The notes: generated from the letters alone by a model not told the origin. A stretch of 64,000 nt of DNA from Acidimicrobiia bacterium (GCA_009841075.1 VXMP01000061.1:14366-78365), one strand, 5' to 3'. Counted from the first letter of the stretch, positions 5,188-54,016 are shown. Translations and numbers: made by a program.

Positions 5188-5281
5188 GGGCGGGTACTGA
5201 AAAATGTCCTGGTCGGCCCGATTAGACGAAACGAAACCTCCTCGCCGGACACACCCCTACCGGGTCTTTTCCCCGCCCTGC
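5188..5281. repeat. Degenerate copy of the ~100-nt hairpin repeat family, inverted relative to the copy at 21902
   Basis: GGGCGGGTACTGAAAAATGTCC..GGCCCG...GACGAAACGAAACC...TCTTTTCCCCGCCCTGCT aligns to the reverse complement of copy 21902-22002 (14/17 in the left terminus). It ends directly at the TAA stop of the ABC exporter. Confidence 0.4.
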
Positions 5282-21901: not shown

Positions 21902-22002
21902 AGGAGGGTGCTGAAAAAGAAGGGTATGCTTGGCCCGCAATTTCATCTAACTGTGGTTTCGTTCGGCCAGCGGGCCAAATGGACTTTTTTCAGCACCCTC
22001 CT
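21902..22002. repeat. Copy of the ~100-nt hairpin repeat family (best reference copy)
   Basis: AGGAGGGTGCTGAAAAAG...CTTGGCCCGC...GCGGGCCAAA...CTTTTTTCAGCACCCTCCT. 17-nt perfect terminal inverted repeat plus a 9-bp inner GC stem. Fills the ftsZ-pgeF spacer and touches the ftsZ TAA stop. Confidence 0.75.
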
Positions 22003-23081
22003 TAATCCTGCACCCAGTCGGGGATATCAAAGGGGTCATCTTCTTCGGAACCCCTGGATCCGCCGAGACGATCCGAGCCGTCGGGAAGGCGTGAGCCCAC
22101 GGAACGAATCCGACCGGTGGAACGTTGACCCACCCCGGCGGCGATCACGGTCACCCTTACTTCCTCCCCAAGCGACTCATCAGGGGTGGCACCGAAGATA
22201 ATGTGGGCATCGGACTCGGCATGCTCCTGAACGGAGCGGGCCGCATCGGAAACCTCGGCCAGGGTCATGTCGTAGGGTCCGCTGACGGACAGCAACACCC
22301 CTTTGGCACCCTCCATCGAGGTTTCCAGCAAAGAACAGGCCATGGCCTGCTGGGCGGCTTGCACAGCCCGGTTTTCACCTGAGGCCCTTCCCACTCCCAG
22401 CACTGCGGTACCGGCACCGCTCAGTACCGCCTTGACATCGGCAAAGTCCACATTGATAAGGCCCGGGGTGGTGATGATGCGGGTGATTCCGTTTACCCCG
22501 TCGGTCAAAACCTGGTCTGCCATGGCAAACGCCTCCATCATGGTGGTGGAGCGATCGGTCTCATGGAGCAGGTTGTCGTTGGGGATAACGATCATGGCGT
22601 CGACCGACTCGCGCAACGCGTCAATACCCTGTTCGGCCAGTTTGGATCGGCGATGGCCCTCGAAACCGAACGGTCTGGTAACCACCGCGATGGTCAGGGC
22701 CTCAAGATTGCGGGCTATCTCCGCGATAACGGGAGCGGCACCGGTCCCGGTTCCGCCTCCCTCACCCGCCGTCACGAACACCAGGTCGGATCCCGCCAAG
22801 GCCTCCTCGATTTCCTCCCGATGACCGTCGGCGGCCGTCTTGCCCACCGAGGGATCCGCTCCGGCACCCAAACCCCTGGTCAGGTCGGCACCGATGTTGA
22901 GTTTGATGTCGGCCTCCGACATCAGGAGAGCTTGGGCATCGGTGTTCACCGCAATAAACTCAACCCCCCTGATCCCGGACTCGATCATTCGGTTGACGGC
23001 ATTCGTGCCGCCCCCGCCGACCCCGACCACTTTTATTACGGCGACATAGCTATGTAAGGAGCTCTCGTTTATAAGAGTCAT
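22002..23081 (-). CDS. ftsZ: Cell division GTPase FtsZ
   Basis: GVGGGGTNAVN tubulin signature and C-terminal DDPFDIPDWV peptide. Confidence 0.98.
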   Translation of the reverse strand: MTLINESSLHSYVAVIKVVGVGGGGTNAVNRMIESGIRGVEFIAVNTDAQALLMSEADIKLNIGADLTRGLGAGADPSVGKTAADGHREEIEEALAGSDLVFVTAGEGGGTGTGAAPVIAEIARNLEALTIAVVTRPFGFEGHRRSKLAEQGIDALRESVDAMIVIPNDNLLHETDRSTTMMEAFAMADQVLTDGVNGITRIITTPGLINVDFADVKAVLSGAGTAVLGVGRASGENRAVQAAQQAMACSLLETSMEGAKGVLLSVSGPYDMTLAEVSDAARSVQEHAESDAHIIFGATPDESLGEEVRVTVIAAGVGQRSTGRIRSVGSRLPDGSDRLGGSRGSEEDDPFDIPDWVQD

Positions 23082-23204: not shown

Positions 23205-23972
23205 TTAGTTTAAGTTGAAGGTAGGAATACTGTTCGCCCTACCGGTGCCGGTATCCCAGGGCCTTACCGCCGGCCGTCCGGGAACCGAAACGTCGATCAA
23301 CCCGTCCGGAGCGGTGTTCAATATGGTCAATAAAGAGGTGGCCTTGTCTCCCATTTCGTAGGGTAAACCCAGCCGGGCGATACGATTGTTCAACCATACC
23401 CAGAGCTCCTGATCGCTCGCCTGGATAATGGTTTGTCCGGCCAGACCATCCGGCAGGGCCGAGATAAACTCCATAGCTCCTTGAGCGTCGTGGGCTTCCA
23501 ATCCTTGGCCTAGACCCGGGTCGTCTATGGACACCCGAATCCGAGGAAGCGGCGAGGTGGGGGTGGCGGCATATCCCACCAAAACTCCGTCTTCGGCCAC
23601 CAAACCCCATCGATCAACCAGCTTGACCCAGGCCGTGTCCACCCGCTCCCTTACCAAAACCTCCACCCTCCCGGGAAACACCAGCCGGACCGTGGCCGAA
23701 GCAACCCTGGGTATATCCCGAAGTTCATCTTCCACCGTACCGGTTCGGATAGCCACCAAAGGCCTTCCCTCGACCACCTGCCACTCCGCCAACAGATCTT
23801 CAACCGGCACCTTTACGGCACCGGTGATGACCACCTCTTTCACGCTCATATACGGCGACAACAGGAACCAGGCCACTCCGCCCAGAAAGGAAAGGATGGC
23901 CATAAACCACAGGGTTTGGCGGATCCGGCGGCGAGCCTGTTGCTCGTCGGCCCCGGATCCTTTAACCGTCAA
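23205..23972 (-). CDS. ftsQ: Cell division protein FtsQ/DivIB (POTRA domain)
   Basis: Single TM segment followed by a POTRA-like VKEVVITGAVKVPVEDL. Position between murB and ftsZ. Confidence 0.8.
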   Translation of the reverse strand: MTVKGSGADEQQARRRIRQTLWFMAILSFLGGVAWFLLSPYMSVKEVVITGAVKVPVEDLLAEWQVVEGRPLVAIRTGTVEDELRDIPRVASATVRLVFPGRVEVLVRERVDTAWVKLVDRWGLVAEDGVLVGYAATPTSPLPRIRVSIDDPGLGQGLEAHDAQGAMEFISALPDGLAGQTIIQASDQELWVWLNNRIARLGLPYEMGDKATSLLTILNTAPDGLIDVSVPGRPAVRPWDTGTGRANSIPTFNLN

Positions 23973-24922
23973 TTCCGGTCTCCTATATAAGGTGGTGCGG
24001 ACACAGACGGGAACCCGATAAATCTGACCTCGGGTACCAGGCCGATCCCGGTGCTGTCAAACACCCTTTGACCGACCTCTTGCACCAGGTCGTAAACATC
24101 CTGGGCGGTGCCAACCGGATCCACCACAAAAAAGTTGGCGTGCTTGGAGGACACATAGGCACCTCCTAGTCGAAACCCTTTCAGCCCTAACGAATCGATA
24201 ATCCGGCCCGCACTGTCTCCCGGAGGATTTCGGAACACACTGCCGGCGTTGAGTGTTCCGCCCGGCTGATGGTCTCTCCTCCACCGGATCGCCTCCCTCA
24301 TCCGGGCGGTGATTTTCTCCGGTTCACCCTCTCGGACGGAGAAAGTGGCTTCAAGAACCACCTCCTCGGGTCGGAGACCGCTGGTGCGATAGCCCAGCCC
24401 GAGCCGGTTTCGCCCCCGTTCGGACACCACGTCGTTGGCAGGATCCAGGATCGATGCCGAACAGATCACGTCAACCGTCTCGGTGCCGTAGAATCCGGCG
24501 TTCATCCGTACCGCCCCGCCCACCGTACCCGGGATCCCCACATAGAACTCCAGCCCGGACCACCCCTCGACCGCCATTCGCCGGGCCAGCACGGGGAGAC
24601 TGACGGCGGCACCGGCCCGTACCCGCAGTGCCTCCCGGTCCGGTTCTATCTGCCTGAACCCGGCACCGAGTCGGATAACCAACCCCCGGTAACCCTGATC
24701 CGACACCACCAGGTTGCTCCCTCGGCCGATAACCACCTGATCGATCTCGGCGGTCCGAGCCGCCGCCACCACCGCCCGAAGTAGTTGAGGAGTGTCTGCC
24801 TCGCAAAAGAACCGGGCCGGGCCCCCCAGCTTGTAGGTGGTCAAGGGGGCCAATTCCACGTTCGGTCGGATTCGACCTTCTGCTACGAGTTCTGTCCAGC
24901 TATCCATCAGGTTTTTCAGCAC
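23969..24922 (-). CDS. murB: UDP-N-acetylenolpyruvoylglucosamine reductase
   Basis: LAPLTTYKLGGPA, IGRGSNLV, GTLNAGSVFRNP motifs. Start (GTG 24922 or ATG 24907) uncertain. Confidence 0.9.
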   Translation of the reverse strand: MLKNLMDSWTELVAEGRIRPNVELAPLTTYKLGGPARFFCEADTPQLLRAVVAAARTAEIDQVVIGRGSNLVVSDQGYRGLVIRLGAGFRQIEPDREALRVRAGAAVSLPVLARRMAVEGWSGLEFYVGIPGTVGGAVRMNAGFYGTETVDVICSASILDPANDVVSERGRNRLGLGYRTSGLRPEEVVLEATFSVREGEPEKITARMREAIRWRRDHQPGGTLNAGSVFRNPPGDSAGRIIDSLGLKGFRLGGAYVSSKHANFFVVDPVGTAQDVYDLVQEVGQRVFDSTGIGLVPEVRFIGFPSVSAPPYIGDRN

Positions 24923-24928
24923 CCTCCC
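24912..24928. repeat. 17-nt repeat-terminus sequence (GGGAGGGTGCTGAAAAA on the minus strand) embedded in the murC stop / murB start junction
   Basis: Exact 15-17-nt identity to the left terminus of the intergenic hairpin repeats. Similarity to copy 43186 continues to about 24896. Confidence 0.5.
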
Positions 24929-26286
24929 AGACGATCAACGATCAGGTCGGGCAGGGTGGCTATATCACCCGCCCCCAAGGTAAGTACCAGATCATCGGGT
25001 TGGACCGAGCGGCCGACCAGATCCGCCGCCTGGGTCAGGTCCTCCGCATAGTGGGCTTGACCGCACCGGCGACTACGAACCGCCTCTGCCACCATCTCTC
25101 CGGTAACACCTGGTAGAGGCTCTTCCCGAGCTCCGTAAATACCGGTGACCACCACCACGTCCGCCTCGGCAAGCGCCTCACCGAATTCGTCCGACAGGGC
25201 GGCGGTTCTGGAATACAGATGGGGTTGGAAAACCACCCAGAGCCGGTTTCGTCTCCGGCTATTTACCGCTTCTATGTCTGCGGATATTTCGGCCGGATGA
25301 TGGGCATAGCTGTCGATAATGGTCACCCCGCCTGCCCGTGCCCGGTGTTCCAATCTTCTTCGCACCCCTTGGAAGGTTTTGAGGCTTTCGGCAGCCGGGC
25401 GGATATCGAAGCCGGAGGCGGACAGCAGAGCCAAAACCCCGGCGGCGTTGCGGGCGGTGTGCAAGCCCGGTCGGCCCACCGTCACGGAGGCAGGCGGAAA
25501 TCGGCCCCCCAAACGAAAGGAAACCGAATCGGGGCCGGACTCCACCTCCGATATTCTCCATTCCGCATCCGGTGCGGTACCGTAACCCGGTCGTCCGGTT
25601 CGCTCGGCCAGGCGGCGGCCTCCCGGGTCGTCTACACCTACCAACACCGGACCGGAAACCTTCTCCACCACTTCCTGAAAGGCGTCCTCTAGGTGAGCCC
25701 GGGTCCCGTAGTGGTCCAGATGGTCGGCGTCCACATTGGTCACCAACAGACCGTTCAGAACCAGGTGGCCAAAGGTGCCGAAGGCCTCGTCCGCTTCCAG
25801 CAGTAGCAGACGATCGGTTCCGAGGTGGGCGGTGGAGTCCGAGCCCATGATTTCCCCTCCGACCAGATAGGAGGCATCCCATCCCAGGGCCCGGGTGGCG
25901 GTTACGGCCAGCGCCGTGGAGGTGGTTTTGCCGTGCGTGCCGGTGAAACCCAGCGTGGGGATATGGGCGGTGATTTCCTGGAGAAGGCGAGGCCGTTCCC
26001 ATTCGGTGATCCCGGCGGCCCGGGCGGCCGACCGCTCCGGATCTTCGCCTGGTACCGCCGAGGAAACCACCACCAGATCACAGCCGGCCATCCGGTCGGG
26101 CTGAGAGCCCACCCAGGTTTCAATTCCCGGTTCTTTCAGCTTATTAAGGGCGACGCTGTCAACCAGGTCCGACCCGGACACGGTATGGCCCATCGCCGAC
26201 AACAGCCGGGCGAGAGGGCCGATGCCGGCACCACCCGCCCCGATCAGGTGTACCCGGAGGGGACCATCAAGAAGCGGCATCGGCAC
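24916..26286 (-). CDS. murC: UDP-N-acetylmuramate--L-alanine ligase
   Basis: GAGGAGIGPLA N-terminus, GTHGKTTST P-loop, Mur ligase C-domain. Confidence 0.93.
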   Translation of the reverse strand: MPMPLLDGPLRVHLIGAGGAGIGPLARLLSAMGHTVSGSDLVDSVALNKLKEPGIETWVGSQPDRMAGCDLVVVSSAVPGEDPERSAARAAGITEWERPRLLQEITAHIPTLGFTGTHGKTTSTALAVTATRALGWDASYLVGGEIMGSDSTAHLGTDRLLLLEADEAFGTFGHLVLNGLLVTNVDADHLDHYGTRAHLEDAFQEVVEKVSGPVLVGVDDPGGRRLAERTGRPGYGTAPDAEWRISEVESGPDSVSFRLGGRFPPASVTVGRPGLHTARNAAGVLALLSASGFDIRPAAESLKTFQGVRRRLEHRARAGGVTIIDSYAHHPAEISADIEAVNSRRRNRLWVVFQPHLYSRTAALSDEFGEALAEADVVVVTGIYGAREEPLPGVTGEMVAEAVRSRRCGQAHYAEDLTQAADLVGRSVQPDDLVLTLGAGDIATLPDLIVDRLGGC

Positions 26287-39975: not shown

Positions 39976-40013
39976 CGGTGCCCCAAGCATCCCCTTCTTT
40001 TTCAACACCTCCC
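39976..40013. repeat. Half copy (one arm) of the hairpin repeat family
   Basis: GGTGCCCCAAGCATCCCCTTCTTTTTCAACACCTCCC matches GCGGGCCAAGCATACCCTTCTTTTTCAGCACCCTCC (reverse complement of the left arm of copy 21902). No partner arm is present. Confidence 0.5.
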
Positions 40014-40075
40014 TTGGAGTTCCCCCGCTGGTAGAATCTCGGTTCGCATCCCCCCACCTCAAAGGAACTACAAAA

Positions 40076-43185: not shown

Positions 43186-43287
43186 GGGAGGGTGCTAAAA
43201 AAGATGGGGATGCTTGGCCCGCAATTACATCTACCGGAGTTTCATTCCCTGCCGGCGGGCCAATTGGATATTTTTCAGCGCCCTCCT
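43186..43287. repeat. Copy of the ~100-nt hairpin repeat family in a divergent intergenic region
   Basis: GGGAGGGTGCTAAAAAAGATGGGGATGCTTGGCCCGCAATTACATCTA...GGCGGGCCAATTGGATATTTTTCAGCGCCCTCCT. Near-identical in its arms to copy 21902. Confidence 0.75.
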
Positions 43288-53913: not shown

Positions 53914-54016
53914 ATGGGGGGCTGAAAGTCGGGGATGGGTTGGCCCCCGGCTTTCTTATAACCGGGATTTCGTTTCCTATCTGCGGGCCAACGGGATATT
54001 TTTTCAGCACCCTCCT
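53914..54016. repeat. Copy of the ~100-nt hairpin repeat family filling a convergent gene gap (left terminus degraded)
   Basis: ...GGGGATGGGTTGGCCCCC...GATTTCGTTTCC...CTGCGGGCCAACGGGATATTTTTTCAGCACCCTCCT. The right end touches the TGA stop of the NYN gene. Confidence 0.65.

What the first reader, a model, noticed from the sequence alone, without database searches (positions are those of the whole stretch)
24896..24930. One arm of the intergenic repeat is embedded in the murC stop / murB start junction
On the minus strand, 24930->24896 reads CTGGGAGGGTGCTGAAAAACCTGATGGATAGCTGG. It encodes the MurC C-terminus (L G G C stop, TGA) and, overlapping it, the MurB start (GTG-CTG-AAA-AAC-CTG-ATG-GAT = M L K N L M D). 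GAGGGTGCTGAAAAA (15 nt) is identical to the terminus of copy 21902. The first 20 nt match the left arm of copy 43186 (CTGGGAGGGTGCTAAAAAAGATGGGGATGCTTGG) at 19/20 positions. Similarity then continues (GATGG..AT.GCT.GG). An exact 15-17-mer match is not expected by chance in 64 kb. Inference: either a repeat arm was domesticated and now supplies the murC stop and the murB SD and start, or the family was seeded from this junction. The intergenic copies also contain GTG-CTG-AAA-AAG.. after GGAGG, in the same layout.
Basis: partly seen in the sequence, partly recalled or inferred. Interest (0 to 1): 0.6.

Follow-up and report, generated by a model that had tools for sequence, protein, structure and literature searches.

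The report
Mobile-element scar at murC–murB junction
The 16-base repeat arm between two cell-wall genes is what is left of a small mobile DNA element: a sister lineage still has the whole element at the same spot, and in this genome the leftover supplies the stop codon of murC, a tidy but ordinary case of mobile-element decay.

Summary
GGAGGGTGCTGAAAAA (24927-24912, minus strand) is the terminal inverted repeat of a ~100-bp MITE with 38 full and 12 truncated copies in this 2.3-Mb sponge-symbiont Acidimicrobiia genome (Ca. Spongiisocius).

Comparative data explain it.
- Thirteen relatives carry an empty junction, ...CTG|GCCGGGCGCTGATG, with a TGATG stop/start overlap.
- The closest other lineage (MurB 87% identical, two independent assemblies) carries a full-length element at the same point, right after the same CTG codon. 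Its murC stop is the TGA inside the arm.
- The window's species keeps only the 16-nt arm, a net +9 nt over the empty site. It is a deletion scar.

The arm encodes the last three MurC residues (GGC) and the stop codon. The ancestral TGA still lies in frame 9 nt downstream, overlapping the murB ATG. A conspecific strain has TGA→TCA and again stops at that ancestral TGA.

The murB start is the conserved ATG at 24907. The GTG at 24922 has no homologue in any relative. The claimed similarity beyond AAAAA is at chance level.

The idea that the family was seeded from this junction is refuted. The idea that the arm was domesticated holds only in a weak sense: it supplies a stop codon and a three-residue tail. 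MITEs overlapping gene 3' ends are already known.

The parts
24912..24927 (-). Remnant terminal inverted repeat (GGAGGGTGCTGAAAAA) of the ~100-bp MITE. It is all that is left of a full-length insertion.
   Evidence: Exact match to family termini. A full element lies at the same site in L203/L208.
24928..24930 (-). Ancestral CTG (Leu) codon of murC. The insertion point lies directly after it, in a C-TG-G context.
   Evidence: CTGG is conserved in the same-genus relatives. Own genome and L203/L208 share the same left boundary. The family has a 2-bp CNNG/CTAG target.
24916..24918 (-). murC stop codon TGA, encoded by the element remnant. It is polymorphic in the species, with TCA in one strain haplotype.
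24907..24909 (-). Ancestral murC stop TGA, still in the murC frame. It overlaps the murB ATG (TGATG) and is used in the TCA strains, where MurC is 457 aa.
24905..24907 (-). murB start codon ATG, conserved.
   Evidence: Invariant column in alignment A1. It is also the start in L203/L208. 312-aa gene calls.
24920..24922 (-). In-frame GTG inside the remnant. It is a possible alternative murB start with no homologue in any relative.
24916..26286 (-). murC (UDP-N-acetylmuramate--L-alanine ligase). The ORF is 456 aa, called as 454 aa. The last three residues (GGC) are encoded by the element.
   Evidence: Pfam Mur_ligase domains.
23969..24907 (-). murB (UDP-N-acetylmuramate dehydrogenase), 312 aa counted from the conserved ATG.
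21903..22001 (.). Full-length copy of the same MITE. It directly abuts the ftsZ stop TAA (22002-22004).
43187..43286 (.). Full-length copy of the same MITE.
53916..54015 (.). Full-length copy with a degenerate left arm. Its right arm abuts the TGA of a 417-codon minus-strand ORF.
5188..5240 (+). Truncated copy. Its arm's TGA ends a 267-codon open frame (...ASGGY*).
39983..40019 (.). Truncated copy (a solo arm of about 37 nt).

Best explanation
A ~100-bp non-autonomous transposable element (MITE) inserted directly after the CTG codon four codons before the end of murC. It has the terminal inverted repeat GGAGGGTGCTGAAAAA, a 2-bp target duplication that is usually TA within CTAG, and 38 full plus 12 truncated copies in this genome. 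The insertion happened in the common ancestor of this species and its closest known sister lineage. The arm reads GGA GGG TGC TGA in the murC frame, so MurC kept its exact length: the tail changed from AGR* to GGC* (GRG* in the sister). The ancestral TGATG stop/start overlap with murB was pushed about 110 nt away. In the lineage of the window, a later deletion of about 100 nt removed all but the murC-proximal 16-nt arm. That left the arm's TGA 8 nt upstream of the conserved murB ATG, with the old TGA still in frame overlapping that ATG. The arm is therefore a transposon scar that now supplies three codons and the stop of murC. It does not supply the murB start. Shown here: family membership of the arm, the empty, full and solo-arm states, the phylogenetic polarity and the TGA/TCA polymorphism. 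Inferred: a single insertion event, the nature of the deletion (possibly slippage between A-runs), and any effect on murB translation.
For: The family was defined from 30 full copies. A profile search found 38 full and 12 truncated loci. Target analysis: the flanking dinucleotide is TA in 11-12 of 27 copies, C at -3 in 15 and G at +3 in 22, and 10 of 27 copies have identical flanking dinucleotides, including CA/CA, GA/GA and TC/TC. The empty site ...CTGGCCGGGCGCTGATG is seen in the same-genus relatives, and none of the 13 relatives aligned carries the arm or the extra 9 nt; the ATG column is invariant. Full element at the same boundary: GATCGTCTGG|GAAGGGGCTGAAAAAGATGG...CAGCACCCTCC|GGCGAGGAAATCTATG in L203 (ENA sponge metagenome) and L208 (JGI). 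It matches the profile over positions 9-115 with E=1.7e-24. In the MurB tree, (own, L209) and (L203, L208) form a clade with 96/98 support that is nested among empty-site relatives. The family is present in all 11 other genomes of the genus and in 3 of a second genus. Fifteen assemblies of the species all carry the solo arm. The only variable site in 110 nt is TGA/TCA at the arm's stop, and the TCA allele sits on a strain haplotype with 6 SNPs in 3.9 kb. Seven other long open frames in the genome end at the same arm TGA with tails such as ...LGGC*.
Against: The right flank in the sister lineage (GGCGAGGAAATCT) does not match the expected TG + GCCGGGCGC well, so the target duplication at this particular site cannot be read. 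A second, independent insertion at the same spot is not strictly excluded. No lineage between 87% and 100% MurB identity was found that would catch the deletion in progress. No transposase partner was found: Pfam DDE_3 is absent from all 12 genomes of the genus.
Confidence: 0.87

Rival explanations
1. Independent events. The window's lineage acquired the arm on its own, separately from the full copy in the sister lineage. This could have been its own insertion followed by deletion, or an ectopic gene conversion or template switch from another copy, seeded by the pre-existing similarity CTGG..GGG.GCTGA.
For: The ancestral junction already shared 8 of 11 positions with the arm: CTGGCCGGGCG against CTGGGAGGGTG. 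The own arm and the L203 arm differ at 2 of 16 positions. The right flanks of own and L203 differ (CCTG against GGCGAGGAAATCT).
Against: Both have the identical left boundary after the same CTG codon, in a site that is not the preferred CTAG target. The two lineages are sisters, so a single insertion is the more parsimonious account.
Confidence: 0.08
2. There is no mobile-element ancestry. Selection for an SD-like GGAGG, a stop codon and an A-rich spacer at an operon junction produced the 16-mer by convergence.
For: GGAGG and TGA are functional motifs that are common at gene junctions.
Against: An exact 15-16-mer is far beyond chance. Thirteen relatives manage without it. The sister lineage has the entire 113-nt element at this site. 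The GGAGG is badly spaced for either candidate start, at 0 and 15 nt.
Confidence: 0.02
3. The family was seeded from this junction: the MITE terminus derives from the murC-murB junction sequence.
Against: The family is present across the genus and in a second genus, and the murC-murB junctions read from these relatives lack the arm. Occupied junctions are a derived, nested clade.
Confidence: 0.01

Closest known systems
QMITE1 and QMITE2 of Coxiella burnetii (PMC5896051)
   Same: These are short non-coding MITEs whose copies overlap the 3' ends of functional genes by 1-50 bp. In one case (enhC) they provide the C-terminal residues, with a strain-dependent stop position caused by an indel.
   Different: The sequence family, host phylum and target are unrelated. 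Here the whole series is documented at one site inside the essential dcw operon: empty, full, solo arm, then loss of the arm's stop.
RUP (repeat unit of pneumococcus) and other MITEs ascribed to IS630/Tc1-mariner elements
   Same: About 100 bp long, with terminal inverted repeats and a TA target duplication. IS630 itself prefers TA within CTAG (Tenzen & Ohtsubo 1991, as cited in PMC2170065). Many copies, no coding capacity.
   Different: No IS630-type (Pfam DDE_3) transposase is detectable in this genome or in 11 congeners. The mobilising enzyme is therefore unknown and the link rests on target preference alone.
Correia elements (Neisseria) and Rickettsia palindromic elements
   Same: From general knowledge: small repeats that insert at TA (Correia) or in frame in genes (RPE), alter neighbouring gene ends or expression, and persist as partial copies.
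   Different: No sequence relationship. Here the coding contribution is only three residues plus a stop. No promoter or processing role was shown.

Membership tests
The ~100-bp Spongiisocius MITE family of this genome | Terminal inverted repeat GGAGGGTGCTGAAAAA | tested here: met
   16 of 16 identical at 24927-24912.
The ~100-bp Spongiisocius MITE family of this genome | Full-length similarity to the family profile (about 100 nt, both arms) | tested here: not met
   Only 27 nt align (E=0.079). The interior is absent and the downstream similarity is at chance level. This is the shortest of the 12 truncated copies.
The ~100-bp Spongiisocius MITE family of this genome | Orthologous site occupied by a full member in a relative and empty in outgroups | tested here: met
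   L203 and L208 carry a full copy, E=1.7e-24. Thirteen relatives are empty.
MITE (miniature inverted-repeat transposable element) | Short, non-coding, terminal inverted repeats, multiple dispersed copies | tested here: met
   38 full copies of 94-112 nt with 16-nt inverted termini.
MITE (miniature inverted-repeat transposable element) | Target-site duplication | tested here: met
   Ten of 27 copies have identical flanking dinucleotides, including the non-palindromic-context pairs CA/CA, GA/GA and TC/TC. TA dominates, with C at -3 and G at +3. At the murC site itself the duplication is not readable.
MITE (miniature inverted-repeat transposable element) | Presence/absence polymorphism at orthologous sites, as evidence of mobility | tested here: met
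   The murC-murB site is empty in the relatives and occupied in L203 and L208.
IS630/Tc1-mariner-mobilised MITE (RUP-like) | TA duplication, with a CTAG preference as for IS630 | tested here: met
.
IS630/Tc1-mariner-mobilised MITE (RUP-like) | A cognate autonomous IS630-family element with matching inverted repeats | tested here: not met
   Pfam DDE_3 (PF13358) has no match in the own genome or in 11 same-genus genomes, while the control genomes gave matches. Other transposase families were not screened.

The most novel reading that the evidence does not exclude
The termini of this MITE family may be shaped to be compatible with operons. Reading inward, two of the three frames stop within 12 nt (the TAG at the target and the TGA in the arm) and an SD-like GGAGG follows. 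Insertions into the last codons of genes, even essential ones like murC, would then be tolerated, and the scars could be retained as working stop and re-initiation modules. On this reading, the TGA/TCA polymorphism would mark two functional modes of coupling murC to murB: an 8-nt gap, or the TGATG overlap.
Probability: 0.1. Interest if true: 0.5.

Novelty: new member of a known kind. Interest (0 to 1): 0.3.

Why it matters
This is a clean natural series showing how a MITE enters and decays inside an essential, translationally coupled operon. The steps are empty site, full insertion that preserves MurC length, deletion to a 16-nt scar that carries the working stop codon, and loss of that stop in one strain with a return to the ancestral overlapping stop.

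It has practical consequences for annotation in these sponge symbionts. The murB start is the ATG at 24907, which gives 312 aa; the 317-aa call from the GTG and the 291-aa call are likely wrong. At least eight open frames, murC among them, carry element-encoded ...GGC*-type tails.

It does not reveal a new mechanism.

Tried and rejected
- **Rfam:** a scan of the whole window at gathering thresholds found no RNA family, so the repeat is not a known RNA.
- **RNA folding:** the own junction folds with z=-1.1 and the full element in L203 with z=-1.5. Neither stands out from shuffles, so no structural claim is made.
- **Extended similarity beyond AAAAA:** rejected by permutation and by comparison with relatives that have no arm.
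- **Microhomology deletion between the element's GATGG and the murB GATGG:** rejected. The product would read AAAAAGATGG, but the genome reads AAAAACCTGATGG.
- **Transposase-mediated excision footprint:** rejected from general knowledge of Tc1/mariner footprints, which are a few nucleotides, not 16 nt of one end.
- **Closer relatives:** a metagenome-contig scan with MurB found nothing closer than 72%.
- **Literature:** searches for 'Spongiisocius' and for Acidimicrobiia + 'sponge symbiont' + MITE returned nothing.
- **Transposase partner:** an IS630 DDE_3 transposase was searched for and not found.

Full report
**What is at the coordinates.** The minus strand 24930->24896 reads CTGGGAGGGTGCTGAAAAACCTGATGGATAGCTGG. 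The murC ORF (24916-26286, minus strand) ends ...CTG GGA GGG TGC TGA, giving the tail L G G C *. A GTG at 24922 and an ATG at 24907 are both in frame with murB (23969-...). The 15-mer GAGGGTGCTGAAAAA recurs exactly at 21904(+), 21986(-) and 54000(-), and with one mismatch at 43188 and 43271. That makes 7 matches at <=2 mismatches, against 0.10 expected from shuffles. The core observation is therefore correct and far beyond chance.

**What the repeat is.** The window is contig C36:14366-78365 of a 2.30-Mb assembly of 90 contigs with 60.7% G+C. MurB relatives are sponge-associated Acidimicrobiia of the genus Ca. Spongiisocius, family Spongiisociaceae.

- Thirty copies bounded by two inverted 15-mers 94-112 nt apart were collected and aligned. 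A profile built from them finds 38 full-length and 12 truncated loci in the genome.
- The ends are GGAGGGTGCTGAAAAA...TTTTTCAGCACCCTCC. The dinucleotide outside each end is TA in 11-12 of 27 copies, preceded by C (15 of 27) and followed by G (22 of 27).
- Ten copies have identical flanking dinucleotides, including CA/CA, GA/GA and TC/TC. This indicates a 2-bp target duplication with a preference for TA within CTAG, as described for IS630 (reference list of PMC2170065).
- No Rfam family matches.
- No IS630-type DDE_3 transposase is found in this genome or in 11 congeners. The element is a MITE whose mobilising enzyme is unknown.
- An earlier follow-up in this scan reached the same classification for the copy at 21902-22002. 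My target analysis was done before I read that note.

**The junction in relatives.**

- *Empty sites.* The murC-murB junction of 13 relatives (MurB 55-74% identical) was aligned. The same-genus relatives read ...GAC CGG CTG GCC GGG CGC TGA TG AAG GGC TGG, that is MurC ...L A G R * with the stop overlapping the murB ATG (TGATG). None of the 13 carries the arm or the extra bases. The window has 9 extra nt. The columns for ATG (24907-24905) and for the TGG of Trp-4 are invariant. The conserved murB start is therefore ATG 24907, and the five codons from GTG 24922 have no counterpart anywhere.
- *Family distribution.* The MITE family is present in all 11 other genomes of the genus and in three genomes of a second genus, and the junctions read from these relatives are empty. 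This refutes the idea that the family arose from this junction.

**The decisive relative.**

- *Search.* A protein search found a MurB that is 87% identical, far closer than the 74% of the next relative. It lies on two independent contigs: L203 (ENA, sponge metagenome) and L208 (JGI).
- *Sequence.* In both, murC and murB are 110 nt apart. The sequence reads ...GATCGTCTGG|GAAGGGGCTGAAAAAGATGGGGGTGCCGGGCCCGCAACTTCATCTAACCGGGGTTTGGTTGGTTGTCGCAACTAGCGGGCCAACCTGGACATTGTTCAGCACCCTCC|GGCGAGGAAATCT ATG AAA AGT TGG.
- *Interpretation.* The inserted block matches the family profile over positions 9-115 with E=1.7e-24. The left boundary, directly after the same CGT CTG codons, is the same as in the window. 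There too, murC stops at the TGA of the arm (L G R G *).
- *Phylogeny.* In a MurB tree, (own, conspecific L209) and (L203, L208) form a clade with 96/98 support nested among the empty-site relatives.
- *Most parsimonious history.* A single insertion occurred on the stem of that clade. A deletion of about 100 nt followed on the branch to the window's species and left only the 16-nt murC-proximal arm.
- *What the window's murB 5' end corresponds to.* The window's ATG GAT AGC TGG ACA GAA CTC GT is the counterpart of L203's ATG AAA AGT TGG AGC GAA CTC GT. It does not correspond to the element interior.

**The claimed extended similarity.** The 43 nt after AAAAA score 5 in local alignment with the element interior, against a shuffle mean of 5.7 (P=0.89). 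Relatives with no arm score 4-7. The GATGG...GCTGG resemblance is simply the murB start region (M-x-x-W), so it is rejected.

**Consequences for the two genes.**

- *Frame and length.* In the murC frame the sequence is CTG | GGA GGG TGC TGA | AAA ACC TGA(TG). The insertion fell on a codon boundary, and the arm's TGA sits at the same distance from it as the ancestral TGA did. MurC therefore kept its length, and only the tail changed from AGR to GGC.
- *Polymorphism.* The ancestral TGA survives in frame and overlaps the ATG. Among 15 assemblies of the species, the 110-nt junction region is invariant except for one site, TGA->TCA in the arm's stop, seen in L209, L216 and L218. That allele gives a 457-aa MurC (...LGGCSKT*) that again ends in the TGATG overlap. 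It belongs to a strain haplotype differing at 6 sites in 3.9 kb. Since the element consensus and the sister lineage both have TGA, TCA is the derived state. The arm's stop is thus used in this genome but is dispensable.
- *SD role.* GGAGG abuts the GTG (0 nt) and lies 15 nt from the ATG. By general knowledge of SD spacing, both positions are poor. Relatives with the empty site have no SD and presumably rely on the overlap. The sister lineage, where the element separates the genes, has GAGGA 6 nt before the ATG. I infer, without a test, that murB translation in the window depends on re-initiation 8 nt after the murC stop and not on the arm's GGAGG.

**A property of the whole family.** Reading inward, one frame meets the TAG formed by the TA target plus the element's first G, and another meets the TGA at +9. 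Among arms entered by an open frame of >=120 codons, 14 frames stop on the target-site stop. These include ftsZ, whose TAA is at 22002-22004. Eight frames stop at the arm's TGA with tails such as ...KLGLGGC*...AESLGGC* and ...DVPGGC*. MurC is one of those eight. These are open frames, not validated genes.

**Comparison with known systems.**

- MITE copies overlapping gene 3' ends by a few bases, supplying C-terminal residues, and showing strain-dependent stop positions are documented for QMITE1 and QMITE2 of Coxiella burnetii (PMC5896051).
- TA/CTAG-targeting MITEs such as RUP are ascribed to IS630-family elements.
- The present case is a new member of that known kind. What it adds is a complete evolutionary series at one site in the dcw operon.

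**Limits.** The target duplication cannot be read at this site, because the right flank in L203 has diverged. Independent insertion or gene conversion is not strictly excluded; I put it at about 8%. RNA folds of the junction and of the full element are not significantly more stable than shuffles.

Noticed in passing
window 22002-22004 and 21903-22001: The ftsZ stop codon TAA directly abuts a full MITE copy. Genome-wide, 14 long open frames stop on the TA-target stop codon of an arm.
   Followed up: partly
genome contigs C39:1937, C44:67016, C71:4733, C31:14763, C57:64607, C44:293; window 5189: Seven other long open frames (124-667 codons) end at the TGA inside a MITE arm, with element-encoded tails (...LGGC*, ...PGGC*, ...LGEC*, ...RGGF*, ...SGGY*).
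   Followed up: partly
window 39983-40019 and 5188-5240: Two more truncated copies of the MITE lie in the window. Twelve of the 50 loci in the genome are truncated, so internal deletion is a common fate.
   Followed up: partly
L203:652-667, L208:1816-1831: In the sister lineage, where the full element separates murC from murB, a GAGGA lies 6 nt upstream of the murB ATG. Empty-site relatives have no such motif. This may be a compensatory Shine-Dalgarno sequence.
   Followed up: no
own genome and 11 same-genus genomes: No Pfam DDE_3 (IS630-type) transposase is detectable, although each genome holds dozens of MITE copies with a TA/CTAG target. The mobilising transposase is unknown or lost.
   Followed up: partly
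window 24844 (TTG), protein P0003: Several public gene calls start murB at a downstream TTG (291 aa). This cuts off the N-terminal segment containing the invariant Trp, so it is probably a start-site mis-annotation.
   Followed up: partly
L208:2767-2851: In the sister lineage the called murB and ftsQ genes are 84 nt apart, whereas they overlap in the window's species. No MITE hit lies there, and the cause was not examined.
   Followed up: no
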